A stretch of 63,284 nucleotides of DNA, filler included, from Stramenopiles sp. TOSAG23-3 (taxonomy: Eukaryota), in the NCBI GenBank assembly GCA_900128585.1. It is 8 parts of 8 records of this genome, joined end to end, with 100 filler letters (N's around TTAATTAATTAA, not from the genome) between each part and the next. Parts side by side here need not be neighbours in the genome. Positions count along the whole stretch, not along the records: positions 26,530 to 35,258 come from LT642990.1; 7 more parts are not named here. The stretch is one strand, 5' to 3'. A model generated the notes under the pieces. That model was not told the origin of the DNA. It searched no databases and saw only the letters and a program-made list of their open reading frames with translations. Position numbers and translations under genes: made by a program. Below are positions 8,751 to 53,001 of the stretch, piece by piece (within the stretch, counting starts at the first letter, position 1; the number at the start of each line of letters is the position of its first letter).

Positions 8751-8850
8751 NNNNNNNNNNNNNNNNNNNNNNNNNNNNNNNNNNNNNNNNNNNNTTAATT
8801 AATTAANNNNNNNNNNNNNNNNNNNNNNNNNNNNNNNNNNNNNNNNNNNN
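8751..8850. other. Artificial contig-joining spacer (N44-TTAATTAATTAA-N44); also at 17599-17698, 26430-26529, 35259-35358, 44066-44165, 52859-52958, 61652-61751
   Basis: The same 100-bp linker with stops in all six frames recurs, and flanking contig lengths decrease or stay equal along the window. Confidence 0.97.
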
Positions 8851-17598: not shown

Positions 17599-18350
17599 NN
17601 NNNNNNNNNNNNNNNNNNNNNNNNNNNNNNNNNNNNNNNNNNTTAATTAATTAANNNNNNNNNNNNNNNNNNNNNNNNNNNNNNNNNNNNNNNNNNNNGC
17701 ACCTGACTTTTCGGCAGGGAGAGCCACTCGACCAGTACACTGTTGAACCCTTTCACCTGCTCCTTTAAATATGCTTTTACCCAATCTCGCTTTTTAACTT
17801 TATGCTATCCCATCACCATAAATATTTTGTTTATTGTATTTTATGCTCACTCCAAAAAAAGATACTGCATTCAATATATTATTATTCCACAACTTGTTGT
17901 AAGTAATAAGGACCCGTTACCTAGGTACCTGATGGTATTATACCGTAGTAGTAGTACGGAAGAAGTTGTTCAACAAAATTCCCAAGTTGGTGGTTGTTGT
18001 ATTGTATTATTATGTATAGTAATAGTTCATTTTTTTATTTATTATTTTTTTTATTATTTTATATAATAAAATTTTCTATTAATATTCCATTCTCTCCTTG
18101 TATTATCATATTGTTGTTGTTGTATTTAATATTTTTATTTATTATCTTCTTCACAACTTATACTAAAACAAGATAAATAATGATGCCATTATATAATATT
18201 ATTATTCTAAAAAACTAATGATATCTAATATACGCGCCTGTTATATTTAGATTATGAATACTTCCTTGCTTTATTTATTACAAGGAACAAATCAATACAC
18301 CGCACCCTGACTAAAAGTACGCCACCAGTGTGGCTTTTACTCCTTAACTC

Positions 18351-25799: not shown

Positions 25800-26645
25800 C
25801 AAGTGTGAGGACATCCAGTTTTGTACGTGTAATAGAAAAGCAAAGAAAAGACAGGCGAGTGCGAGACAATAGTGTGCGTGTGCGCGTTGAACCTCCCCGC
25901 AGAATCAACCCGATCCCACATTCGGTAAGACTTAAGAATTAGATTTTTAACGTTTGTACATAGTTTTCAATCAGTTTCTATATCACAGTTCTTACACACG
26001 TACCTTTTAAAACTAAAATCACACTTTTTATTTCAAATTGGAATCTTGACCAGAAATTAAGGAAGGGTGTGTGCAGTGCAATAGGAGGCAGCATCTACAT
26101 TTGGAGTCAGTGTAACTCAGTCTTTAACTCTTATAGATTTATTAGAACGACACAAATGTTTCAATAACATTCATTGCGTCCAAATCTTGCATTCAAGATT
26201 TATGATAACACTTAATGCTGTGACCATATTCTTTCTGATTAACACGTAGTAGTTTTCTATGACAAAAATATTACTTTTTTAGACGACTATATAAATTATT
26301 AAAATGTATGCTACAATTGTTGTCCAACTGTGCATTTCGGCAGTCTATTTGGACTCCCAGCAACGTATCCTAAGTCACAATTTTGTGACCCTCCTTTACA
26401 AGCACTACCATCGCCGTAACGCGATAGACNNNNNNNNNNNNNNNNNNNNNNNNNNNNNNNNNNNNNNNNNNNNTTAATTAATTAANNNNNNNNNNNNNNN
26501 NNNNNNNNNNNNNNNNNNNNNNNNNNNNNAGACAATTCTCTTTCGAAATATGTTTGAAACATCATTGTTACACATAGAAACGCAAGATAGAATGCAAAAA
26601 GGGGCGGTCATTGACAGAGTTCACATATAATTGCCTCGTTATAAG

Positions 26646-28040
26646 ATGCCTTATGATGGCCGTATCACAGACGGAAGTGAGCATGCAGAGTGCTGCGGGT
26701 ATAATATGAACAATGTTACTTGGAAGCGATGGAGTGGGAGAAATTTTGAATACAATGAAGGCCAAAAATACGCTGGAAACGGAATCTTAATAAGAATGGT
26801 AGGAAAACGTAAGTTTTTCCATCTCTCTACATATCCAAATGAAGATGCGTTTACTGAATTGTCTGAAAGAATGGAAGGACGAGCAACAACTGGTGGTTCT
26901 GGTAACTTAGCGTACCAGCGATGTGAATGTGGAAAGACGTTTAAACCATTTATAGGACAAGACTGTTGTGCAAGATGTCTCCTACAGCAAAAAACAAAAG
27001 TAGAAATGGAAAAAAAGAAGTTGGAGACAGATGCAGAAAATCATAGAAAGAAAGTGGAGTTGCTTTCACAGGAGTTAATGGCTCTCCAATCAGATTATGA
27101 TTTTACAAAGTCAAAGGCAGCTGAAATAGATAATCAATGGAAGATGCAACAGTTATTGCTGGATGCAGAAAAGGCCAAATCAAAAAGTTTATATAAAAAG
27201 ATTGCATCTCTGAAAGATGGCTGTACAAAACAACGATCGTTATCACGGTTAACAAAAGCCTTAGCACTCAACAGTGACGCACTATCTAACGTTCTTTCAG
27301 GGGAAGAAAAAATAAAAGGTGAGGTGGCAAACCTGAAGATCCAGTTGGATAGTTACAGGTCAGAGTTAGCTGCCGTAATTGCAAAACAACAGTTGTTGAC
27401 CACCGAGGGAAATACATCTATTATAACGTTTCTGCAGGAGACCATTTACGAAGATTCCGTTCGTTTTTTTACGGGTGTGTTTGGTGTGAGTGGCCCTTTG
27501 AACAAGAACATTAGGAAGAATTGTGTGGAGAAAAATTTAAGAGAGTTTCCAAAGCAATTTCACGGTATATTAGCATCTTCTGGTTTCTCAAACATGTCAT
27601 TTTCGTTTCGTAAAGGAGAAACATTAGAGTCTGATTTTGCGATCAAAGTACAAGATCTCCTTAATTTTGGCTGTTATATAAATGAAGAAAGTGAGACAGT
27701 ATCTGTAGGCCATATGAGGGTTGGTGATATATTTGATCTTGTAGGAAGGAAAGACATTCTTCAACCGGGGGAAATCCAACACAGTGATCGGATAGACACA
27801 GATACCCTGCAGCAATGGAGAAGAATTTCCCGTAAACGGCTGGCTTCAATGGTCATTGAGCATTTGTTCAAAAAAAACTTTTTGACCAAATACAAACGAA
27901 TAACTGCTGCCAGAATCCGATTGGACGAGACAACGTATGGCGTAATGTTGATTATAGAAGTTACGATGGCAAGTTATCGAAAAATAGGACAAAGAATGGT
28001 CCTTGATAGAGGATTGGAAACGTGGCAATCCTTGTTTTAA
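26646..28040 (+). CDS. Hypothetical protein with Cys cluster (CECG...CCARC) and central coiled coil
   Basis: Open frame of ~464 aa from ATG 26646, with a heptad-rich E/K/L segment. No family recognised. Confidence 0.6.
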   Translation: MPYDGRITDGSEHAECCGYNMNNVTWKRWSGRNFEYNEGQKYAGNGILIRMVGKRKFFHLSTYPNEDAFTELSERMEGRATTGGSGNLAYQRCECGKTFKPFIGQDCCARCLLQQKTKVEMEKKKLETDAENHRKKVELLSQELMALQSDYDFTKSKAAEIDNQWKMQQLLLDAEKAKSKSLYKKIASLKDGCTKQRSLSRLTKALALNSDALSNVLSGEEKIKGEVANLKIQLDSYRSELAAVIAKQQLLTTEGNTSIITFLQETIYEDSVRFFTGVFGVSGPLNKNIRKNCVEKNLREFPKQFHGILASSGFSNMSFSFRKGETLESDFAIKVQDLLNFGCYINEESETVSVGHMRVGDIFDLVGRKDILQPGEIQHSDRIDTDTLQQWRRISRKRLASMVIEHLFKKNFLTKYKRITAARIRLDETTYGVMLIIEVTMASYRKIGQRMVLDRGLETWQSLF

Positions 28041-28486
28041 CTCACAGCAGTTTTTGTGTATCGTTGGATATACGTCCTCTGTTTTTATCTTTTCGTCTAT
28101 GTACCATTGATAGGGTAACCAATAGTACCAAATATGTATATTAAAATCATAATTTTGTAGCTAGATTGGCCTAGAGCTACCTCCCCCCCGTTTTTTTTAT
28201 ACCTATTAAAAGTATCCTTATTAGTATTACGAATCGTAGTCTTTTAACAAAATACGGTACAGCCATTCATTTACAAGTTTTTATTAAATTTTCTGTATCG
28301 TACAAGTTTTTTATTATTTATTATTATTAATATTACTAGCAGTTTCTTTGAAACTTTTGCAAGCTAAACAAAATTGCTATGGAAGAAAACTTTGAGCATA
28401 TTATTTAACAAACTGTTTATTCTTCGGTTTATAATTCGAATTATATTACTGTGCATGACAATTATTATACATTTAATTTGTTTTGA

Positions 28487-30307
28487 ATGAGTTCTGAAGC
28501 ATTGTGGCGTGGTAGTGACTCGCAATTTGGGTACTCCCCATTTGTCAACCGTAACTTTCAATTCAAGGTGTGTAGTTCATATCGAGTGCGTGACTTTGTC
28601 CTGTCAAATTCCCGCGCTTACACCTGTCATATTATCAACAGTTGCACCAGCGCACTGTTGGAATTGATTATAAGAAGGGGGGGGGTGCATCTTGGCGACG
28701 CAGGAGGGTTCTGTGACCAGTGGGAGATTGGATGGTCAGACCCAAAAACTGAAAGGGGATTTCACAAGCGATCTGTTATAAAGCTACTTGGGGAGGGGAC
28801 GGATTATCTGGAACAAATTTCAAAAGGAGTAACCCAAAAGGAGTTCCTGGATGCAGCAAAAAAGTATATCGAAAAGGAAAGGGAAGAAAGGTCAATATCG
28901 TTTGTTATATGCTCGACCTTCATGGCGTACACCAACAATGTCGTAAATGGGGCGACCTTGAGAGCTTTGTGTGCATGGTGTGAGGCCAAAGACCTGCACC
29001 TGATCATGGATGACACGCTTGGTTCTTTTAGGTTGAGTGGCGATCTCTGCAGTTGGAACGGCGTGATTAATTTTTATCCCCATGGATATATTCTTGGCTC
29101 AAAAACATTTGGATGTGCGTCCTTATGGATAAAGTCAAATTTGGTAGAAATGTTTTCTGTCTTGGTACCAAACTTTTCTGGTAGTCATGTCTTGCAAGAT
29201 TGTCTGGGTCGGTTTAAAAGGACATATCAATACGTGGCAAAGCTAGCCAGAAAAAGATATTCGGATGCAGAAACTGTTAGGAAATACTATAAATTCTGCG
29301 GGGGGGCGTTCTTTTGGTGGGTTGGAGAGCCAGTCACTGAGAAATGCAAATGGATTCTAAACTTGATGAAAACTTGGAGGTACGACAAGAGGATTTTAGT
29401 ACCTTTCGATTACGATTTCAAACCGGTTCTGAAAAGAATCAGAGAGGAAAAGAAAAAAGGGTTAAAAGTGGAAAAAGAAAGAGCGAAAAACCGAAAAAGA
29501 AAGCGAGAGCAAAGGGCAACGAACGCCCTGCTACCGAAGTTTGAAATGGTGAAAGTAAATTCAACACTGCTGGTTCCATTCGGGATGGCAAATCTGGAAT
29601 CGAGTAATTATATCAATGGATCCGTAGTGGGTGTAAACAAACAAGGCCGGGTGATAAAGAGATTGGGACAGCTTTTGCACCAAGAAATTGAAATCATCCG
29701 CAAAAAATGCCGTATAAGAGGAGAAGTGGAGTCGCCAGTTGCAATATGGAATGATGTTTCTAATCCACCAGCCCCACAATTTCTTCACAGTGATGGGGCA
29801 GCAATGAGTGTGTTCATACCTGTAAGTGAGTTTGGGCGTCAATTGGATGTGCTGGCCTTGTTTGGAGGAAAATTTTTGCGCGTACGGGTACATATACCAT
29901 ATGGAACTGTGTTAAAGTTCAATGCATCTGTGTTCCACGGGGGTTCACCAGGGAATGATCATTCGCCTAACCCTTGCATCCACTTTTATGTGGACATAAG
30001 TGCAGATGAAGAAACATTCCTACATAGGAGATTACGATGCTTTCGGCTACCAGAGGCACAAAATTATATGCCGGCTGACATGGTTTGTAACAATGGCACA
30101 CTGAATATGGCTATTGTTAGAAAGAATGGCGTTTTGCCCTTGGAACACTTCAAAGATATAATGGTTGGTTGGTATCCAGGATGCAATGAGTGGGATGTAA
30201 CTTCGACTGATGCCAGTATGGACGAATCCAAAATGAATGATTCCAGTACGTACGAATTCAAAGAATGTTCATATGATGAATTTGTAGTTGCTGCAGATAA
30301 AACTTAA
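28487..30307 (+). CDS. Fusion of PLP-dependent aminotransferase-like (fold I, class III-like) domain and 2OG-Fe(II) oxygenase (PhyH-like) domain
   Basis: LRALCAWCEAKDLHLIMDDTLGSFR (D175) and PHGYILGSKTFG (K206) mirror the class III LIxDE...PD...K pattern. PQFLHSD (H434, D436), MSVFIPV and GTVLKFNASVFHGG (H484) give the HxD...H triad. A basic NLS-like linker separates the two domains. Confidence 0.6.
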   Translation: MSSEALWRGSDSQFGYSPFVNRNFQFKVCSSYRVRDFVLSNSRAYTCHIINSCTSALLELIIRRGGVHLGDAGGFCDQWEIGWSDPKTERGFHKRSVIKLLGEGTDYLEQISKGVTQKEFLDAAKKYIEKEREERSISFVICSTFMAYTNNVVNGATLRALCAWCEAKDLHLIMDDTLGSFRLSGDLCSWNGVINFYPHGYILGSKTFGCASLWIKSNLVEMFSVLVPNFSGSHVLQDCLGRFKRTYQYVAKLARKRYSDAETVRKYYKFCGGAFFWWVGEPVTEKCKWILNLMKTWRYDKRILVPFDYDFKPVLKRIREEKKKGLKVEKERAKNRKRKREQRATNALLPKFEMVKVNSTLLVPFGMANLESSNYINGSVVGVNKQGRVIKRLGQLLHQEIEIIRKKCRIRGEVESPVAIWNDVSNPPAPQFLHSDGAAMSVFIPVSEFGRQLDVLALFGGKFLRVRVHIPYGTVLKFNASVFHGGSPGNDHSPNPCIHFYVDISADEETFLHRRLRCFRLPEAQNYMPADMVCNNGTLNMAIVRKNGVLPLEHFKDIMVGWYPGCNEWDVTSTDASMDESKMNDSSTYEFKECSYDEFVVAADKT

Positions 30308-30437
30308 TATAGGTAATTAAAAAAATATACAGTACCAATAATAAAATATTTTACGAATTAAAACCATCTACCCCGACGCGAAGAATGCCTTCAACTCACA
30401 AGACCGCCGCCCTCAAGCACTGCCCGGCCGAATATTT

Positions 30438-33400
30438 TTAACGAGAAACAGTAATTCCTTTCATAAAGATATATTTTGTACGCTGTTTTACCCTTTTTGC
30501 CATTACTTTCACATCCTTTGCAGTTGCATTTCCGTTTGCAAGAAACCCTACTGCATCTTGGATTAGCTGATCTAACGCCGATATATTAGCGTACGAGCAG
30601 TACATACAGTCCTCATTCTCTATGCACCGACCGCAAATGCACCCTACACCGTCATAATCGTGAAATGTTTTTATGTATGAACTTTTGCTTTCTCGCGTCA
30701 GAGTGTTGCTTTTATGGTGTACGTATTGTGCTCTAATCTCTTTTAATGGCTGTGGGTCAACCATCTCACCGTAAGTGTGAGTCAGTAAAATTTTGATCAG
30801 CTTAGACAAACAAGAACTCTTGTTTGTACTGGAGCTTACAATTGAGCGATATACTGGAAGTGATTTCACATATTGATGATAAGATTCCATAACTTCCAAT
30901 AAGCCTACTTCCCCTAGGGAAAATCCGTGAGACACCAGCTTATCCATGACATCTGGACCAACAGTTGTTGCAATCAAATCATATGGTCGAAATAAATCTG
31001 GAAAGCAGTAAACTTGCAGAAACTCCAATTTAGCAGCTGCTCTTCGATACCCTTCAGCTATCTCCGTTAATTCTTTTGCTTTCGTTTCCTTGTCTTCAGC
31101 ATGAGTGGAGGCACTCATATAATATACAAGTTCCCTGCTGTAGATTCCCATTAAATAAATTGATGAGAATATATCTTGCATTCCCTTCTCTGTTTTCGGT
31201 TTTCCTGTTTTCTTATGTACCTTTATTGCTTCCTGGAGAACACGAAGTAATTCCTCAACATGAATTAGAACCTGATTTGCCTGCTCTCCTATCAATCGCC
31301 TTGAGCATATATCATCCTTTCCTAAAAACGATTCCAAGTGCTTCCGAGATTCACTATATATTGCAAAGTTAGCTTTTGCGGCAGTTTTCAAAAATAGTAT
31401 TTCTGTTTTCTCAGCGTACACTATCAGCTTTGAGCGAAAGATTGGCCTGTGGAGCGCTTTTAGAAAATAGTCCAACGAGGGCCCCAGCTCCTTCTTGTCT
31501 GCAATTTTGTGACCCATGTGCTCATCATACATGGCTAAACTATTTGTGCACAGTGCAAGCAAATCAGCCACTTTTGTAGTCTTATAATGCAATGCGCATA
31601 GAGCAACCATCGCCCATGTTACTTCACTGCCAAACAAAGGCTCTGGGTTCACTAGACCTATGCCCATCGATTTTGCAAATGCAGCTCGATCGGTTTCCGG
31701 GGTCTTTTTTACCTCCTCACGTAAAAATTGCAAAATCTCAGGTGTCATTTGCACAGGCTTCGGCAGATTTTCTTCAGAAAATGGTCTAACTTCAGTTGCT
31801 CTCCTACGCTTCTTTCTGCCTTTCCGCACTGAATACGTTTCTTCGTGTTTTCTAAGGGCCTCTTTTCTTTTACGGAAGACAACTTTCAGTTCCTCTAATG
31901 TTAGTTGTCGTGCAGCAAAAATAGAGAAAGGGTTTTCACTGTTTCGTCCAATAGTCCCGTACCCTGAATTTTGCTTGCACATAAAAACTGCTGAAGGGTA
32001 ACAGAACGGGCTACGATGGTCTGCAAATCCAAACAACTTATTCAAAGCCTTCATATCACACGCCGGAATGTATGCAACATCGGTATGGTAGTCAATGGTA
32101 CCATCAGATCTGACAGTTTCTAACTTGTGTCTTGCAACGTCTTTCTGAAACGATAGCATCGACTCCGCAATTTGTCCACACAGTATATGTGCTTCTGCAG
32201 AATCTTCTTTAACATTTGCGATCAAAATTGGAATCATCTGCTCACGAGTTTGTGAAATATTCTCATTTAATATACGCACTAGGACAATCAGCTGATCTTT
32301 CTGTTGCCCTGATTTTGTCCTTGGTGCCCCGTCAAAGTGGATGGTAATATACAAGGTTCCCCCATGTATGTATGACTCCTTGCGCATATAATGGTTTATG
32401 GCCATTTTGATTCGATAATTCATTAATTGTCCAAACTCTTTGACGTATGCATGGTCTTTCAGCACAGTTTCGGATTGAGCAAGAAAATGCTCAATGCCAG
32501 ATTCACGAAGCATCTCCTTTGCAGTTTCACTATCTAAATTTGTTGACAACTCACTCATTTTTATTGGATACGTTTCATTTCCGACTGGTACATACCAAGT
32601 AGCATTAACAAAGCGCCAGTGAACCAATTTCTTTTGAGTTCTACTTAAAATCTTTTGTTGTGCTACTGTCACATTTGCTCTCCACCGATTTAAGAGCTCC
32701 TTTATTCGCTTCTCTTCATTCATTGCTTTAATCTCGAACTCAATAATTTCGATCAGATCCTTAACAATATCTGCTTTTGTTCTTTCATCGACAAGCCCCT
32801 TTCGTTGATTTGAAGTGAGGTTCTCCTGGAACTTTCCAAACAAACCAATAACGTTTTGAACACACTCATCTTGTTCGGTAGCAAATTCTATTTCATCAAC
32901 AGAACTAGAAGAATGGACTAAATCGTCCAGTGTTGATACACAATTGTTATCATTCTCGCAATGTATAAAGACAGACTTACTTGTCCCACTAAATGGACAC
33001 TTTGCGCATTCAAAGGAATTATGAACATTCAGAACTGTTCCTATTACATCATTGCGCTCATTAACGTCCTGCACTATATCAATTTTTTCGAAAAACTCTT
33101 TGCAAATGTCATCCCTGCTGACAATCATCATATTAGCCTTTGCATTAATTTTTGCATACAGACTCTTTTCTTCTGCAGTCATTCCAGTTAGAGCACTACG
33201 CAAAACCATCTGCGCCCATTTGTGTCCTCCAGAGCAAAACCAATTCGAGTCCATATAAAGTCCAACTGCCTTTGACACAATTTTTTTCAATTCATCAGCA
33301 TCATGTGTATGTGTGAACTCCATAACATGCCATCGTGTTGGAAGGCCAGAACATGTGTACGGTGTTTTCATGACTATGAAATACTGCATAGCTGCTAAAG

Positions 33401-35258
33401 TGATAACACTGGATTTACTCTTAGTGCGCTTCCACAAATCTATCCATCTAGATTTGGTTAGGTCCACAGGTGGCCGCATAGACAAAAGACAATCCTTGAT
33501 GCCATAATCAGCCAGGTCGTTTCTAATCAAAGAACGGCGAATAAAGAATACACCTTGCATGCGGTCATTGCCAGCTGCCATTTGTACTGTTAGAGTACGA
33601 AACGCAATAAACTGCTGATGCCAATGTGGTTTATTGCTGTTTAAAATGGCCAACTTTTCTTCTGTTGGAAACTTTGAAGTACGATCAGCAAGAAAAGCAA
33701 TATTTACTTTTGACATCCGTATGCAATTTATTGCAACAATTTTATGTTCCGGAGACCATCCCTCCCAAAATGCAAAAAATATCATATTATTGCTATTGTA
33801 AATTCTTTTGGATGCTCCCAACTGTTTTAATTTCTCCTTTAAATTTCCAGCTTTGTTCAACGCAACTCCAAAGTTGTACTCAAACTCGCCAAACGATTTT
33901 AGGCCTATACATGTATGTGCTGAAACTGCTGCATTTAGATTTCTTATAGCAGTTCCTAATGCATGTAAATCATGGAAAACCCCCGCAAAATAGTTTTTTA
34001 AATCATACCCAAAAGAATTCATTTGGGGAAATGCAATACGAAGAGCTTTTTGAGCATCCAGTACACCACATCCTGCTTCAATAATGCTGAAGGCAGAGGT
34101 CTTTAAACCTGACAGTTTCACAAGATACGCAAGCGTGCCCAGTACTTGTGCTAAGGACCGATCACACATGGTACCTGAGTGCCCATTGTCTGCATTGTGT
34201 GATAGTGCTTCCCATACAGCTTTCCACCCTGGAATTCGTCTTAAAGAAACCAGTAATGCTTCCATTTCCCGCTCCATTTCGCGAACGCGTTCCTTGTTAA
34301 TGTTTATTCGACGTTTAAATTGTTTGAAATTTTTGAAGAATCGTCTCCTTATATGGGACGGGTCAAGAGTACGATTCAACTTTAACTGGCGCTGAAGTTT
34401 CCGTATTGTTTTTACAGGAGTATAATGCTGACGTTTCTTTCTACCAGAATTTGGTATGCCGAGTTTTTTTCGATAAAAATTTGTAGCCTGTGCTGCAAAA
34501 GGAGCACGTTTGCTCTTCTTCTTCCTTAGCCGGTCTTTTTTCTTCTTCTTCATGTGACGTTCTAGTACAACTTTAACACGCCTTAAATAGTTTGTTTGTT
34601 TGAAGTACCCTGCCTTATGAAGTTGATTAAATACTGCTTTACGCCGTTCTGGTTGTCTATTAATATTGTGTTTTGAATGTACCTGCAGAATAAGCAATGC
34701 CTCAAAAGAAGTAATGGTTCGTTCTGGGTTACAAAGACAAAATTTTTTGTGCAAATCAAGAGATCTCCAACTAATTTCAGTACAAAAGTCACAATAACAG
34801 CATTTCCACTTGTGAGTGCCAGACTGTCTGCGCTGCACAGATTTCTGTTGCTTTAAAAGATAGTTTTGTAGTGATGCGAAACTGGACTCACCCAATATGG
34901 AGGCAACTGCACTATTAGTCATTGTGTCGTCGGAGGCAACTTCACTATTAGTCATTGTGTCGTCATTTTTGGAATTTTGATGTTGGGTGGGATGACGGCG
35001 GCGCCGACGTCGCCTACGGTGCCTACGGTGGTGCACCTTTTTTCCTGGGTCCTCTTTGCTACTATCTGAACCTGACGTAGATAATGATACGCTAGAAGCA
35101 TTCGATTCGGGTCCTGGCATAAATAATGATACGCTAGCAGCATTCGATTCGGGTACTGCCACAGATAATGATACGCTAGAAGCATTCGATTCGGGTACTG
35201 CCACAGATAATGATACGCTAGAAGCATTCGATTTGAGTCCTGCCATAGATAATGATAC
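30438..35258 (-). CDS. RAG1/Transib-like DDE transposase fused to class I SAM-methyltransferase-like domain and Zn fingers (>=1602 aa, possibly 5'-partial)
   Basis: Ordered motifs IHFDG (D972), PILIANVKED (E1014), ACDMKALNKLFG (D1064), CALH (H1220), LIGEQA and FRPY...SLGEVGLLEVMESYH (E1451/E1454) match RAG1 D600/E662/D708/H795/E959-E962. IIEAGCG...FGYDL is MTase motif I/II. CCYC...H...C is a Zn finger. Numbering is from ATG 35246. Confidence 0.75.
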   Translation of the reverse strand, partial: VSLSMAGLKSNASSVSLSVAVPESNASSVSLSVAVPESNAASVSLFMPGPESNASSVSLSTSGSDSSKEDPGKKVHHRRHRRRRRRRRHPTQHQNSKNDDTMTNSEVASDDTMTNSAVASILGESSFASLQNYLLKQQKSVQRRQSGTHKWKCCYCDFCTEISWRSLDLHKKFCLCNPERTITSFEALLILQVHSKHNINRQPERRKAVFNQLHKAGYFKQTNYLRRVKVVLERHMKKKKKDRLRKKKSKRAPFAAQATNFYRKKLGIPNSGRKKRQHYTPVKTIRKLQRQLKLNRTLDPSHIRRRFFKNFKQFKRRININKERVREMEREMEALLVSLRRIPGWKAVWEALSHNADNGHSGTMCDRSLAQVLGTLAYLVKLSGLKTSAFSIIEAGCGVLDAQKALRIAFPQMNSFGYDLKNYFAGVFHDLHALGTAIRNLNAAVSAHTCIGLKSFGEFEYNFGVALNKAGNLKEKLKQLGASKRIYNSNNMIFFAFWEGWSPEHKIVAINCIRMSKVNIAFLADRTSKFPTEEKLAILNSNKPHWHQQFIAFRTLTVQMAAGNDRMQGVFFIRRSLIRNDLADYGIKDCLLSMRPPVDLTKSRWIDLWKRTKSKSSVITLAAMQYFIVMKTPYTCSGLPTRWHVMEFTHTHDADELKKIVSKAVGLYMDSNWFCSGGHKWAQMVLRSALTGMTAEEKSLYAKINAKANMMIVSRDDICKEFFEKIDIVQDVNERNDVIGTVLNVHNSFECAKCPFSGTSKSVFIHCENDNNCVSTLDDLVHSSSSVDEIEFATEQDECVQNVIGLFGKFQENLTSNQRKGLVDERTKADIVKDLIEIIEFEIKAMNEEKRIKELLNRWRANVTVAQQKILSRTQKKLVHWRFVNATWYVPVGNETYPIKMSELSTNLDSETAKEMLRESGIEHFLAQSETVLKDHAYVKEFGQLMNYRIKMAINHYMRKESYIHGGTLYITIHFDGAPRTKSGQQKDQLIVLVRILNENISQTREQMIPILIANVKEDSAEAHILCGQIAESMLSFQKDVARHKLETVRSDGTIDYHTDVAYIPACDMKALNKLFGFADHRSPFCYPSAVFMCKQNSGYGTIGRNSENPFSIFAARQLTLEELKVVFRKRKEALRKHEETYSVRKGRKKRRRATEVRPFSEENLPKPVQMTPEILQFLREEVKKTPETDRAAFAKSMGIGLVNPEPLFGSEVTWAMVALCALHYKTTKVADLLALCTNSLAMYDEHMGHKIADKKELGPSLDYFLKALHRPIFRSKLIVYAEKTEILFLKTAAKANFAIYSESRKHLESFLGKDDICSRRLIGEQANQVLIHVEELLRVLQEAIKVHKKTGKPKTEKGMQDIFSSIYLMGIYSRELVYYMSASTHAEDKETKAKELTEIAEGYRRAAAKLEFLQVYCFPDLFRPYDLIATTVGPDVMDKLVSHGFSLGEVGLLEVMESYHQYVKSLPVYRSIVSSSTNKSSCLSKLIKILLTHTYGEMVDPQPLKEIRAQYVHHKSNTLTRESKSSYIKTFHDYDGVGCICGRCIENEDCMYCSYANISALDQLIQDAVGFLANGNATAKDVKVMAKRVKQRTKYIFMKGITVSR
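34899..34964. repeat. 33-bp tandem duplication (DDTMTNSxVAS x2)
   Basis: GGAGGCAACT(G/T)CACTATTAGTCATTGTGTCGTC occurs twice with one mismatch. Confidence 0.9.
35079..35258. repeat. 42-bp coding minisatellite (SNASSVSLSVAVPE-like), >=4.3 copies, runs off contig end
   Basis: ATAATGATAC recurs at 35081, 35123, 35165, 35207 and 35249. Confidence 0.92.
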
Positions 35259-35358
35259 NNNNNNNNNNNNNNNNNNNNNNNNNNNNNNNNNNNNNNNNNN
35301 NNTTAATTAATTAANNNNNNNNNNNNNNNNNNNNNNNNNNNNNNNNNNNNNNNNNNNN

Positions 35359-39368: not shown

Positions 39369-40226
39369 TCAGCTGGTGGCATTGTCCAAGAAATCGTTTT
39401 GCATTTCTGCCATGTGTTTCATGGCGTTTTTATACATTTCTTCGTTTACGTTTTTGATGGAAAAATACAGGTGATACTTTCGTAAGTGGTTCTGAAGCTC
39501 TATTTTTCTCATTACTACGAAGCCAGCCTCCGACAGAAGCGCCGAGCGATTATCACTGTGAGAAATCAGAAAGAAAATATTGCTGGTGACCCTATATATT
39601 TCGTTCAAAATTTTCAACACCTCCGGATGCTGCTGTTTCAGCTGCTCAAGTGAAACGTCATCGTTAACCCCTGTCAAAAGGGCGTCTAGGGTGCCCTTGT
39701 CAATAGAAACATCAAACGATTTTTCATTAAAAGTCATTTCACACGCGTCCATTTTCAAAAACTTAAGCCGTTTCTCGCCCACATACTTTTCGTTCAGTAC
39801 TCGAACGGCGGATTCGGAAATGTCGATTCCAGTGACCCTGCCGTAGTTGGCCTCGCATATACTCCAAGGAAGCAGACTCATGCCACAGCCTACGTCCAAA
39901 AATGATAAATCTGCTGGTGGATCTGGCAAGAATCGCGTAAAACTAGGTGCAATCATGGCAAAATCAACGAACCATTCGTTCCGCTCAACACCCACGTCAC
40001 TCAACGACGACTTGGCATAGCGGTCCTCCCAATACCTTGCAGAGGAGTAGAAGGATTTGTTCCCTCTTTTCGTCATATTCCTCCGACTGCGCTTACAGCA
40101 CACGTCACACTCTCCTGCATCATGCTCAACCTTCAAGTGAATGCACTGTTTGCGGGAGTGGCCGTTTACTCCACAGTATTTACAAGTTTCTTCTGCACTA
40201 GCGGCCGTCGTTGTGAGCGTGGCCAT
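39369..40226 (-). CDS. EEF1AKMT4/METTL13-like SAM methyltransferase with N-terminal CCHC zinc knuckle
   Basis: YWEDRY, EWF, LDVGCG, GIDIS, MDA and DKGTLDAL motifs. CKYCGVNGHSRKQC knuckle. Confidence 0.85.
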   Translation of the reverse strand: MATLTTTAASAEETCKYCGVNGHSRKQCIHLKVEHDAGECDVCCKRSRRNMTKRGNKSFYSSARYWEDRYAKSSLSDVGVERNEWFVDFAMIAPSFTRFLPDPPADLSFLDVGCGMSLLPWSICEANYGRVTGIDISESAVRVLNEKYVGEKRLKFLKMDACEMTFNEKSFDVSIDKGTLDALLTGVNDDVSLEQLKQQHPEVLKILNEIYRVTSNIFFLISHSDNRSALLSEAGFVVMRKIELQNHLRKYHLYFSIKNVNEEMYKNAMKHMAEMQNDFLDNATS

Positions 40227-44065: not shown

Positions 44066-44165
44066 NNNNNNNNNNNNNNNNNNNNNNNNNNNNNNNNNNN
44101 NNNNNNNNNTTAATTAATTAANNNNNNNNNNNNNNNNNNNNNNNNNNNNNNNNNNNNNNNNNNNN

Positions 44166-48428: not shown

Positions 48429-48696
48429 TAGGGATAGGATTTTAAGGGGCTAGGGGCAACGCCCCTATTTTTCTTGTCTCGAAACCAAAAAAGGGGCGGA
48501 ATCTTTNNNNNNNNNNNNNNNNNNNNNNNNNNNNNNNNNNNNNNNNNNNNNNNNNNNNNNNNNNNNNNNNNNNNNNNNNNNNNNNNNNNNNNNNNNNNNN
48601 NNNNNNNNNNNNNNNNNGTTCATAGCAGGTGATTAGCAAAGCCCCTTTTTTCGCCCCTTTTTTTTTGTTTTTGCGCCTCTTAAAATCCTTAGCCTA
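48429..48696. mobile_element. hAT-like TIR element (MITE or collapsed longer element) with 8-bp TSD CGTGAAAT
   Basis: TSD at 48421-48428 and 48697-48704. The 22-bp TIRs TAGGGATAGGATTTTAAGGGGC and revcomp TAGGCTAAGGATTTTAAGAGGC match 18/22. There are subterminal AAAAAAGGGGCG/CGCCCCTTTTTT inverted repeats and an internal N gap at 48507-48617. Confidence 0.8.
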
Positions 48697-52727: not shown

Positions 52728-53001
52728 TAACCGAGATGCATTTGAACATTTATATTTTGGTTCAGATTCAAAGTGTCCAGTGAATCGAGTTTATTTGATG
52801 TGTTTGACATGCGATAAACCACCAGCTGAAGAGAAACCCATGGTTGGAGTGAATGTGGNNNNNNNNNNNNNNNNNNNNNNNNNNNNNNNNNNNNNNNNNN
52901 NNTTAATTAATTAANNNNNNNNNNNNNNNNNNNNNNNNNNNNNNNNNNNNNNNNNNNNTTGCAAAATTAGATCAGGTTTACAAGATTGGGATAATCTTGA
53001 G

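What the first reader, a model, noticed from the sequence alone, without database searches (positions are those of the whole stretch)
28487..30307. Unusual PLP-aminotransferase-like / 2OG-Fe(II) oxygenase fusion with NLS-like linker
The N-half has the fold-I PLP signature (D175 in LIMDD, K206 in GSKTFG, 31 aa apart). The C-half has H434-x-D436...H484 in a DSBH-like strand pattern. They are joined by a K/R-rich linker (RAKNRKRKREQR) that suggests nuclear import. The usual 2OG-binding Arg after the distal His appears to be Cys (NPCIHFY), so activity is uncertain. Oxidation followed by transamination is chemically coherent for making an amino-modified base or residue (inference).
Basis: partly seen in the sequence, partly recalled or inferred. 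Interest (0 to 1): 0.72.

Follow-up and report, generated by a model that had tools for sequence, protein, structure and literature searches.

The report
Aminotransferase-like / iron-oxygenase fusion protein
A marine protist gene encodes a rare, conserved protein that joins a very divergent vitamin-B6 aminotransferase-type domain to an iron/2-oxoglutarate oxygenase-type domain through a strongly basic linker; the architecture is real but its substrate is unknown.

Summary
Pfam finds nothing at E<=1. Three full-length metagenomic homologues at 36-39% identity keep both halves and the basic linker.

The N-half models as a compact class-III (fold-I) PLP aminotransferase: Foldseek E 2e-7, VIA Z 12-13.6, pLDDT only 68. 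D175 and K206 are invariant. A standalone relative gives weak class-III hits.

The C-half models as a double-stranded beta-helix Fe(II)/2OG oxygenase. HxD...H is kept in every homologue that covers it. The Arg-to-Cys remark holds: three distant standalone homologues have R-x-H where this clade has C/A/S-x-H. The fused clade instead has an Arg at 451, possibly a relocated 2OG binder (inference).

The window is eight contigs joined by N-linkers. The true neighbours are only a coiled-coil ORF and a giant protein whose full form carries a Ulp1 protease domain.

Best reading: a two-step oxidation/transamination enzyme. A nuclear target and mobile-element cargo status are untested. PLP/2OG-oxygenase chimeras are already known (FlvA), so this is a new variant of a known kind.

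The parts
28487..30307 (+). ORF B: 606-aa fusion protein (the finding), single exon
   Evidence: Colinear over 86-98% of its length with three homologues of 581-643 aa. A ~97% identical 599-aa copy (P0042) sits on another, 36-kb contig.
28619..29422 (+). N-domain (about residues 45-312): compact class-III-aminotransferase-like PLP fold-I domain. D175 codon 29009-29011, K206 codon 29102-29104.
   Evidence: AF2 model pLDDT 68.3. Foldseek top hits are all class-III transaminases, E 1.9e-7, TMq about 0.5. VIA Z 12.2-13.6 over 244-293 aligned residues. D175 and K206 are invariant. The standalone relative P0032 hits Aminotran_3 at E 2.7e-4, below the cut-off, and gives 13 weak NCBIfam class-III hits.
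29423..29521 (+). K/R-rich linker (residues 313-345), NLS-like by composition
   Evidence: 16 K/R in 33 residues here; 25/41, 19/35 and 16/37 in the homologues. It is modelled as one long helix. No localisation test was possible.
29522..30001 (+). C-domain core (residues 346-505): DSBH Fe(II)/2OG-oxygenase-like. Codons: H434 29786-29788, D436 29792-29794, R451 29837-29839, H484 29936-29938, C497 29975-29977, H499 29981-29983.
   Evidence: AF2 model pLDDT 78.7, pTM 0.80 for the best of five; the others score 40-61. Foldseek PDB gives 242 hits at E<=1e-3, led by P4H, KanJ, PHD2 and SnoN. In the VIA wide search, 49 of the 50 rows shown are named Fe/2OG oxygenases and one is uncharacterised, Z 8.0-9.8. 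The second look reaches Z up to 10.6. BFVD hits are cyanophage and giant-virus 2OG oxygenases.
30002..30304 (+). C-terminal tail (residues 506-605), conserved at 28-31%, with no fold assigned
   Evidence: The structural matches end near model residue 165-197.
26646..28040 (+). ORF A: 464-aa coiled-coil protein with an N-terminal Cys cluster; upstream neighbour on the same contig
   Evidence: Only weak coiled-coil-type Pfam/NCBIfam hits.
30438..35246 (-). ORF C: giant protein, 5'-truncated here by the contig end inside a 42-nt tandem repeat; convergent with ORF B
   Evidence: The full form P0034 (1892 aa) has an N-terminal Peptidase_C48 (Ulp1) domain, E 4.3e-33. Homologues at 42-54% identity exist. 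An E-x-G-x-G methyltransferase-like motif was seen by eye only.
26530..26600 (+). 5' segment of the contig that, in other public contigs, is followed by the start codon of the full-length ORF C type gene
   Evidence: In one search, table 7, loose ends at 26600 in runs X2 and X4 read on into a sequence that translates as MRVLTAE. That is the N-terminus of P0034.
30372..30410 (.). Short segment between the convergent stop codons of ORF B and ORF C, where contigs of three metagenome studies branch into other sequence
   Evidence: table 7 (X3, X4, X6).
26430..26529 (.). Artificial contig linker (N44-TTAATTAATTAA-N44); its twin lies at 35259-35358

Best explanation
ORF B is a genuine, selectively maintained two-domain enzyme of an uncultured marine protist lineage. 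Residues ~45-312 form a shrunken class-III (omega-type) PLP aminotransferase fold. It keeps the pyridine-binding Asp (D175), the Schiff-base Lys (K206), a phosphate-loop-like NS[CS]TSA motif and a C-terminal R-I-L-x-P motif. Residues ~346-505 form a double-stranded beta-helix of the Fe(II)/2-oxoglutarate oxygenase type with an intact HxD...H iron triad. The two are tied by a 33-residue Lys/Arg-rich helix. Most likely mechanism (inferred): the oxygenase oxidises a C-H or an N-methyl/amine-bearing carbon of a substrate to a carbonyl or hydroxyl. The omega-type transaminase then interconverts that carbonyl with an amine, or does the reverse. This is a two-step oxidation/transamination carried out on one polypeptide. 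The canonical 2OG-binding Arg on strand VIII has been lost in this clade (C497), but an Arg at the start of strand IV (R451) appeared with that loss. I therefore expect the oxygenase still uses 2OG, or a related 2-oxo acid, bound as in FIH/JmjC enzymes. The basic linker is also present as a basic N-terminal extension in standalone C-domain relatives, one relative carries a zinc finger, and the neighbouring gene has a Ulp1 protease domain. From these I lean, weakly, to a nuclear, polyanion-associated target (chromatin or nucleic acid) rather than a free metabolite. Shown: the ORF, its conservation, both folds at model level and the motif conservation. Inferred: cofactor binding, reaction order, the role of R451, localisation and substrate.
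For: - ORF and residues.
- Conservation of the whole architecture at 36-39% identity in P0001-P0003. Both halves are about equally conserved: N 41-42%, C core 35-37%.
- N-domain fold: the first 50 listed Foldseek hits are PLP fold-I enzymes, nearly all class-III transaminases, E from 1.9e-7. VIA gives Z 13.6 for SapH and 13.2 for BioA, with 244-293 residues aligned.
- N-domain sequence echoes, none individually significant: 12 of 20 hits and about 41 of 49 hits in PDB profile searches are class-III enzymes centred on the LIxDE motif, best E 0.015-0.06.
- The standalone relative P0032 is linked to ORF B by phmmer at E 9.9e-5 against 1.84 billion proteins. It hits Aminotran_3 at E 2.7e-4 and 13 NCBIfam class-III models, best E 6.3e-5. 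It keeps the Asp (VVDDV) and the Lys (TGTKALG).
- C-domain fold: Foldseek gives 242 PDB hits at E<=1e-3, the listed ones all Fe/2OG oxygenases. In the Foldseek-independent VIA search, 49 of the 50 rows shown are named Fe/2OG oxygenases, Z up to 9.8. The second look gives SnoN Z 10.6, PHD2 10.3 and AndA 10.1. BFVD hits are viral 2OG oxygenases. ESM-Atlas nearest clusters include '2OG-Fe(II) oxygenase family protein' at 0.93 (a lead only).
- Motifs sit where the fold expects them: HxD just before strand III, H484 in strand VII, C497/H499 in strand VIII (DSSP string).
- Arg swap: position 497 is R in 3 of 3 standalone-clade sequences and in 0 of 9 fused-clade sequences. Position 451 is R in 8 of 9 fused-clade sequences and A in 3 of 3 standalone ones.
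- Chemical precedent: SapB oxidase makes pseudouridine 5'-aldehyde, and the class-III enzyme SapH transaminates it (abstract of PMC10127198).
Against: - No curated family model recognises either half. Pfam gives 0 hits at E<=1 for ORF B, and none of the 12 C-domain family members hits an oxygenase family at E<=10. A C-domain profile finds no oxygenase in the PDB by sequence.
- Both models rest on shallow alignments (14 and 21 rows, many of them fragments). Only one of five C-domain models is confident (78.7 against 40-61), and the N-domain reaches only 68.3. TM-scores are modest (0.35-0.53), and the VIA notes say Z 7-8 is common background.
- The N-domain is about 95 residues shorter than class-III enzymes, and its Lys lies one residue further from the conserved Pro than I recall for canonical members.
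- The Arg 497/451 swap is one evolutionary contrast between two clades, not repeated covariation. I could not inspect model coordinates.
- P0013 has neither Arg, and P0010 lacks H499.
- Nothing here shows PLP, Fe or 2OG binding, expression (no RNA run was listed) or localisation.
- A known PLP-lyase/2OG-dioxygenase chimera, FlvA, makes a free amino acid, which favours the small-molecule rival.
Confidence: 0.5

Rival explanations
1. Small-molecule biosynthetic enzyme. The fusion makes or tailors a free metabolite (an unusual amino acid, polyamine, amino sugar or nucleoside) in the cytosol. The K/R-rich stretch is only a charged spacer, and the neighbours are irrelevant.
For: Every characterised close structural neighbour acts on small molecules or peptides: SapH, BioA and omega-transaminases; SnoN/SnoK, KanJ, AndA and AsqJ. 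FlvA is a documented chimera of a PLP-dependent lyase and an aKG dioxygenase that builds a free amino acid (passage in PMC8902786). Earlier scan notes describe giant-virus 2OG-oxygenase/DegT-aminotransferase fusions read as amino-sugar enzymes (unchecked).
Against: The basic region directly before the DSBH is kept in all four fused proteins and recurs as a basic N-terminus in the standalone relatives P0022, P0028 and P0030. P0008 has a Cys/His finger in front of the same domain. No other metabolic gene lies on the contig; the neighbours are a coiled-coil protein and a Ulp1-domain giant protein. PHD2, P4H and AlkB-type macromolecule-modifying enzymes score as well as the small-molecule ones.
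Confidence: 0.27
2. Partly or wholly non-catalytic protein. One or both domains are pseudo-enzymes kept as binding or scaffold modules, for example a DSBH that no longer binds 2OG after losing the strand-VIII Arg, or a truncated aminotransferase fold unable to dimerise.
For: C497 replaces the Arg that the standalone relatives keep. The N-domain is about 95 residues shorter than class-III enzymes. No family model recognises either half.
Against: The residues a dead enzyme would be free to lose are exactly the invariant ones at 36-39% identity: D175, K206, H434, D436 and H484. A compensating Arg (R451) is present in 8 of 9 fused-clade sequences.
Confidence: 0.13
3. Co-substrate coupling rather than sequential chemistry. 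The aminotransferase domain does not touch the oxygenase's substrate. Instead it makes or regenerates the 2-oxo acid that the oxygenase consumes, for example glutamate to 2OG, or another 2-oxo acid suited to the altered pocket.
For: Many class-III aminotransferases use the 2OG/glutamate pair (general knowledge; names, such as taurine:2-oxoglutarate and 4-aminobutyrate transaminases). The altered strand-VIII position could reflect a changed 2-oxo-acid specificity.
Against: No precedent was found in the searches I ran. 2OG is abundant, so a dedicated supply domain seems unnecessary. There is no direct evidence either way.
Confidence: 0.08
4. Chance ORF or assembly artefact.
For: The window is an artificial concatenation of short contigs.
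Against: The ORF lies wholly inside one contig. It has full-length homologues from several sources and a 97% copy on a 36-kb contig. The contig's DNA is held by runs of 15 studies, two of them at 78-93% of its words.
Confidence: 0.01

Closest known systems
Class-III (subgroup II, omega-type) PLP aminotransferases, Pfam PF00202: BioA, SapH (PDB 7qzj), GABA/ornithine aminotransferases, omega-transaminases
   Same: Overall fold-I architecture in the model (Z 12-13.6). The Asp in a hydrophobic-strand LIxD(D/E)xxxGxxRxG motif and the Lys about 30 residues later are kept. The NS[CS]TSA and R-I-L-x-P motifs resemble the family's SGSEA and R-x-x-PPL motifs (resemblance recalled, not computed).
   Different: About 330 instead of about 425 residues. 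It falls below every curated threshold. The Lys is offset by one residue from the Pro-Asp landmark. It is fused to an oxygenase. Dimerisation is unverified.
Fe(II)/2-oxoglutarate oxygenases of the prolyl-hydroxylase (PHD2/P4H) and PhyH-like (SnoN/SnoK, KanJ, AndA, AsqJ) groups
   Same: DSBH core with HxD before strand III and the distal His on strand VII.
   Different: No sequence-level family match. The strand-VIII Arg of the R-x-S type is replaced by Cys/Ala/Ser in this clade, and an invariant His follows two residues later. There is an extra ~100-residue conserved tail. No subfamily stands out, since the Z values are tied within 1.
FlvA of the fungal flavunoidine pathway: chimera of a PLP-dependent lyase and an aKG-dependent dioxygenase
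   Same: One polypeptide joins a PLP fold-I enzyme to a 2OG oxygenase (passage read in PMC8902786).
   Different: The FlvA PLP part is described as a lyase, not a class-III aminotransferase. It sits in a fungal secondary-metabolite cluster and has no basic linker as far as I know (recalled). No sequence comparison was made here.
SapB/SapH (PumI/PumG-type) steps of pseudouridimycin biosynthesis
   Same: The same chemical logic as proposed here: an oxidase makes an aldehyde and a class-III PLP enzyme turns it into an amine, on a nucleoside (abstract of PMC10127198). SapH is the top VIA match of the N-domain, though tied with BioA.
   Different: Two separate bacterial proteins. The oxidase is a flavoenzyme, not a DSBH.
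Transposon-borne TET/JBP dioxygenases of fungi (KDZ, hAT, EnSpm and others)
   Same: An analogy only: a DSBH oxygenase carried beside a large transposase-type gene, thought to counter silencing (abstract of PMC12730594). ORF B sits beside a Ulp1-domain giant protein, and a shared 5' segment suggests inverted ends.
   Different: TET/JBP did not appear among the listed structural matches, which is inconclusive. ORF C has no recognisable transposase domain. Mobility is not shown.

Membership tests
Class-III PLP aminotransferase (Pfam PF00202 Aminotran_3) | Scores above the curated family threshold | tested here: not met
   ORF B has no Pfam hit at E<=1 and no NCBIfam hit at E<=0.1. Its standalone relative P0032 scores 20.2 bits against a cut-off of 30.5.
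Class-III PLP aminotransferase (Pfam PF00202 Aminotran_3) | Fold-type-I architecture (large alpha/beta domain plus small domain) | tested here: met
   The model (pLDDT 68.3) matches class-III enzymes: Foldseek E 1.9e-7, TMq about 0.5; VIA Z 12.2-13.6, 244-293 residues aligned, rmsd 4.4-8.1. The model is of moderate confidence.
Class-III PLP aminotransferase (Pfam PF00202 Aminotran_3) | Pyridine-N Asp and Schiff-base Lys in register | tested here: met
   D175 and K206 are invariant in 4 of 4 full-length proteins and present in P0032. HMM alignments place D175 on the DE motif of GSA aminomutase and taurine:2OG aminotransferase. The Lys register is inferred and is offset by one residue.
Class-III PLP aminotransferase (Pfam PF00202 Aminotran_3) | Obligate homodimer with shared active sites | tested here: inconclusive
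   Not established. See Tried and rejected for the one attempt.
Class-III PLP aminotransferase (Pfam PF00202 Aminotran_3) | PLP binding and transaminase activity | not testable with these tools
   Needs purified protein.
Fe(II)/2-oxoglutarate-dependent oxygenase superfamily | Double-stranded beta-helix core | tested here: met
   The model (pLDDT 78.7) gives 242 Foldseek PDB hits at E<=1e-3. In the unbiased VIA search, 49 of the 50 rows shown are named oxygenases of this superfamily, Z 8.0-9.8. The second look reaches Z up to 10.6.
Fe(II)/2-oxoglutarate-dependent oxygenase superfamily | HxD/E...H facial triad | tested here: met
   H434 and D436 are present in 11 of 11 sequences covering them, and H484 in 12 of 12. 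Their positions fit strands II/III and VII of the model. The geometry could not be inspected.
Fe(II)/2-oxoglutarate-dependent oxygenase superfamily | Basic residue (Arg/Lys) on strand VIII binding the 2OG C5 carboxylate | tested here: not met
   C497 occupies this place in ORF B, and 0 of 9 fused-clade sequences have Arg there. Three of 3 standalone relatives have R-x-H. R451 on strand IV is a candidate substitute (inference, as in FIH/JmjC, recalled).
Fe(II)/2-oxoglutarate-dependent oxygenase superfamily | Scores above a curated family threshold (for example PF13640, PF05721, PF03171) | tested here: not met
   No such hit for ORF B or for any of the 12 C-domain family members at E<=10.
TET/JBP dioxygenases | Structural or sequence match to TET/JBP | tested here: inconclusive
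   There is no Pfam hit. The listed rows name other subfamilies, but a family that is not listed is not excluded.
Cargo gene of a eukaryotic DNA transposon | Recognisable transposase, terminal inverted repeats, target-site duplication, multiple copies | tested here: inconclusive
   ORF C has a Ulp1 domain but no transposase hit. A shared 5' segment (26530-26600) precedes both ORF A and, in other contigs, the start of ORF C. A second copy at ~97% exists. The ends of the unit are outside the contig, and no other copy lies in the window.

The most novel reading that the evidence does not exclude
ORF B is the enzymatic cargo of a previously undescribed three-gene, inverted-repeat-bounded selfish element of marine protists: coiled-coil protein, AT-oxygenase fusion, and a Ulp1 / methyltransferase-like / possible transposase giant protein. 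It chemically rewrites a chromatin mark by oxidation followed by omega-transamination. One possibility is converting a methylated or free lysine epsilon-amine to an aldehyde or back. Another is turning a 5-methyl/5-formyl pyrimidine into a 5-aminomethyl base. Either would give the element a new way to escape or impose silencing.
Probability: 0.08. Interest if true: 0.88.

Novelty: new variant of a known kind. Interest (0 to 1): 0.5.

Why it matters
If both halves are active, this is a compact natural oxidase-plus-omega-transaminase on one chain, built from sequence families so divergent that no curated model sees them. It comes from an uncultured marine protist lineage. It would enlarge the known sequence space of class-III transaminases by showing that a ~330-residue minimal version can exist. 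It would also give a natural example of the 2OG-binding Arg migrating within the DSBH. If its target is chromatin or nucleic acid, and if the three-gene unit is mobile, it would be a new kind of epigenetic tool carried by a eukaryotic element, alongside transposon-borne TET/JBP and SET enzymes. If it is an ordinary small-molecule enzyme, it is a modest addition to the known PLP/2OG-oxygenase chimeras.

Tried and rejected
- Whole-genome search: no genome is held for this window.
- Pfam, PHROGs and NCBIfam on ORF B: nothing.
- Pfam on all 12 C-domain relatives at E<=10: no oxygenase family.
- PDB sequence profile of the C-domain: two irrelevant hits.
- Profile search of the 5.8-billion-protein set with the C-domain alignment: only 3 proteins, one of them new (P0043). 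The family stays tiny.
- Loci: IMG/VR scans for relatives of ORF B and ORF C found none. The one metagenome scan gave a single 2.4-kb contig holding only a fragment, with no usable context.
- Zinc-finger link between P0008 and ORF C: BLASTP E 0.81, not significant.
- ORF C: the ESM Atlas gave no usable hit. A PDB profile search gave only two spurious spike-protein hits.
- Terminal repeats inside the contig: the only long 'inverted repeat' is the pair of artificial N-linkers.
- Composition: GC3 of ORFs A/B/C (0.36-0.43) is low, but it matches XPD (0.36) and other ORFs of the window. There is no clear foreign signature.
- Expression: no RNA holder was listed for the contig, so nothing can be said.
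- Homodimer of the N-domain with PLP: complex prediction returned 'no answer' (score 0.00, controls not run, alignment not used). This is no evidence either way.
- Literature: a search for aminotransferase + 2OG-Fe + fused + JBP + DNA base modification found 0 papers. A looser search gave nothing describing this fusion; the aminotransferase passages in PMC2938197 concern bacterial gene neighbourhoods, not fusions.
- Earlier scan notes by sequence for ORF B and ORF C: none.
Full report
**Setting.** The window is not a continuous piece of genome. Seven 100-nt linkers (N44-TTAATTAATTAA-N44) split it into eight contigs of about 8.7 kb in descending length. The only long 'inverted repeat' around the finding is a pair of these linkers. 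The finding lies on the contig 26530..35258. Earlier notes of this scan call the source an uncultured marine protist (unchecked). The other contigs carry ordinary intron-poor eukaryotic genes: SMC, XPD, PP2C, an aspartyl protease and a teneurin-type EGF protein. Only three ORFs are true neighbours:
- ORF A, 26646..28040 (+), a coiled-coil protein.
- ORF B, 28487..30307 (+), the finding.
- ORF C, 30438..35246 (-), convergent with ORF B and cut at its 5' end by the contig end inside a 42-nt tandem repeat.

The Pfam-recognisable methyltransferase at 39369-40226 is on another contig, so its adjacency is not shown.

**Observation.** ORF B is a 606-codon ATG-initiated frame. The linker has 16 K/R in 31 residues.

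**Homologues.** Pfam finds nothing at E<=1.
- A word-indexed search of 5.8 billion proteins gave three full-length homologues (643, 607 and 581 aa; 36-39% identity; 86-98% coverage; E 1e-102 to 1e-118).
- An exhaustive phmmer search of 1.84 billion representatives gave 30 hits at E<=1e-3, mostly fragments.
- A ~97% identical 599-aa copy (P0042) lies on a different, 36-kb contig.
- The four full-length proteins are colinear. D175, K206, H434, D436, H484 and H499 are invariant.
- Both halves are about equally conserved: N 41-42%, C core 35-37%, tail 28-31%. The linker is K/R-rich in all four: 16/33, 25/41, 19/35 and 16/37.

The gene is therefore real, single-exon and under selection over its whole length.

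**N-half.** An AF2 model from a 21-row alignment reached mean pLDDT 68.3.
- Foldseek against the PDB returned at least 500 hits at E<=1e-3. The listed ones are PLP fold-I enzymes, almost all class-III transaminases (best E 1.9e-7, TMq about 0.5).
- VIA-align gave Z 13.6 for SapH, 13.2 for BioA and 12.2-13 for omega-transaminases, GABA and ornithine aminotransferases, over 244-293 aligned residues. These are ties, so no subfamily can be named.
- Sequence evidence is weak but one-directional. Profile searches of the PDB gave 12 of 20 hits and about 41 of 49 hits to class-III enzymes. All centre on the LIxD(D/E)xxxGxxRxG stretch, with best E 0.015-0.06.
- P0032 is a 351-aa standalone relative of the N-half (phmmer E 9.9e-5 library-wide). 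It hits Aminotran_3 at E 2.7e-4, which is 20.2 bits against a cut-off of 30.5. It also hits 13 NCBIfam class-III models, best E 6.3e-5 and far below their cut-offs. It keeps the Asp and the Lys.
- From memory of the family's motifs, NS[CS]TSA resembles SGSEA (the phosphate loop), HLGD resembles (Y/F)HG, and R302-I-L-V-P resembles the C-terminal R-x-x-PPL with its substrate-carboxylate Arg.
- The domain is about 95 residues shorter than canonical members, and K206 sits one residue further from the Pro landmark.

I file it as 'works like, and probably descends from, class-III aminotransferases'. It is not a threshold-passing member.

**C-half.** An AF2 model from 14 rows gave pLDDT 78.7 and pTM 0.80 for the best model; the other four scored 40-61.
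- Foldseek found 242 PDB hits at E<=1e-3. The list is led by bacterial P4H, KanJ, PHD2 and SnoN, with E about 1e-5 and TMq 0.35-0.43.
- The Foldseek-independent VIA search of 48,161 chains showed 50 rows. Forty-nine are named Fe/2OG oxygenases and one is uncharacterised (Z 8.0-9.8, 128-179 residues aligned).
- The second look gave SnoN Z 10.6, PHD2 10.3 and AndA 10.1.
- BFVD hits are cyanophage and giant-virus 2OG oxygenases.
- The ESM Atlas listed a '2OG-Fe(II) oxygenase family protein' cluster at 0.93 (a lead only).
- By the model's strand order, HxD precedes strand III, H484 opens strand VII and C497-I-H499 lie on strand VIII. This is the canonical layout.
- No sequence model sees the domain. 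The assignment therefore rests on a single confident model plus motif conservation.

**The missing Arg.** The 12-row C-domain alignment separates two clades.
- Nine sequences are of the fused type. This group includes P0008, where a Cys/His finger replaces the aminotransferase half. At the strand-VIII position they have C, A or S, so Arg is present in 0 of 9. Eight of 9 have Arg at position 451, in the G-R-x-L-D motif at the start of strand IV.
- Three standalone proteins (P0022, P0028, P0030) have R-x-H on strand VIII and Ala at position 451.

The pattern also suggests that the 2OG C5-carboxylate binder moved to strand IV, as in FIH/JmjC enzymes (recalled). This is one contrast between two clades, not repeated covariation. 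P0013 has neither Arg, and I could not inspect coordinates. It remains an inference with a clear mutational test.

**Context.**
- The full-length form of ORF C (P0034, 1892 aa, near-identical) has an N-terminal Ulp1/C48 protease domain, E 4.3e-33. Three homologues at 42-54% identity share a very conserved ~1300-residue body with Cys clusters and an E-x-G-x-G methyltransferase-like motif. There is no Pfam, PDB or Atlas match for that body.
- I laid public contigs on the finding's contig. In two runs (X2, X4) the segment ending at 26600 continues into a sequence that translates as MRVLTAE. That is the start of P0034. So the same 5' segment precedes ORF A and, elsewhere, ORF C. Because A and C face inward from opposite ends, this is what terminal inverted repeats of a three-gene unit would look like. 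The ends themselves are outside the contig, so this is a lead only.
- Contigs of three metagenome studies (X3, X4, X6) branch at 30372/30410, between the convergent stop codons.
- GC3 of ORFs A-C (0.36-0.43) is low but is shared by XPD and other ORFs.
- No relatives of ORF B or ORF C were found in IMG/VR.
- No RNA run was listed, so expression is untested.

**Mechanism.** I commit to a two-step enzyme. The DSBH oxidises a carbon of the substrate, and the omega-type transaminase interconverts the resulting carbonyl with an amine, or acts in the reverse order.
- The logic has precedent: SapB oxidase followed by the SapH class-III transaminase on pseudouridine (abstract of PMC10127198).
- The architecture has precedent: FlvA is a PLP-lyase/aKG-dioxygenase chimera (passage in PMC8902786).
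- Earlier scan notes describe 2OG-oxygenase/DegT-aminotransferase fusions in giant viruses (unchecked).
- A nuclear or polyanion-bound target is suggested only by three things: the conserved basic region before the DSBH, which is also present in standalone relatives; the finger in P0008; and the Ulp1-domain neighbour.
- Transposon-borne TET/JBP and SET enzymes are an analogy for the boldest reading (abstract and passages of PMC12730594).

**Verdict.** This is a new, very divergent variant of known kinds: a class-III-like aminotransferase, a 2OG oxygenase, and PLP/oxygenase chimeras. The substrate, localisation and mobility remain open. Confidence is high that the two folds are as stated (about 0.8), moderate that both are catalytically active and act in tandem (about 0.5), and low for a chromatin or nucleic-acid target.

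Noticed in passing
window 8751-8850, 17599-17698, 26430-26529, 35259-35358, 44066-44165, 52859-52958, 61652-61751: The window is eight contigs of ~8.7 kb in descending length, joined by N44-TTAATTAATTAA-N44 linkers. Any 'neighbourhood' argument across these points is invalid. A separate run of 111 N lies at 48507-48617.
   Followed up: yes
window 30438-35246 (-): ORF C belongs to a small family of ~1300-2000-aa proteins at 42-54% identity. The full form has an N-terminal Ulp1/C48 protease. It also has an E-x-G-x-G methyltransferase-like motif, several invariant Cys clusters, and conserved H-x-D-G-A-P-R and C-D-M-K-A-L-N motifs that could be a DDE-type core. No known family matches the body.
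   Followed up: partly
window 26530-26600: In public contigs of two runs this segment is followed, 8 nt later, by the start codon of the full-length ORF C type gene (MRVLTAE...). The same 5' segment therefore heads ORF A here and ORF C elsewhere. This may reflect terminal inverted repeats of a ~10-kb three-gene unit.
   Followed up: partly
window 30372-30410: Contigs from three metagenome studies diverge on either side of this ~39-nt stretch between the convergent stop codons of ORF B and ORF C. This suggests a short dispersed repeat at the gene ends.
   Followed up: no
window 34899-35258: 42-nt and 33-nt tandem repeats encode SNASSVSLS-type Ser-rich repeats in ORF C. The contig breaks inside them.
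   Followed up: no
whole window: The large ORFs fall into two GC3 groups. One is about 0.36-0.43 (ORFs A-C, XPD, and the 870-, 2005- and 522-aa ORFs). The other is about 0.53-0.71 (SMC, Myb, PP2C, ankyrin, EGF, ADH). This is either strong compositional heterogeneity or a mixed bin.
   Followed up: no
P0008 (411 aa, metagenomic): A relative carries the same DSBH domain behind a C-x2-C...H-x3-C finger and a basic region instead of the aminotransferase half. The oxygenase domain is therefore a module that recombines with different N-terminal parts.
   Followed up: partly
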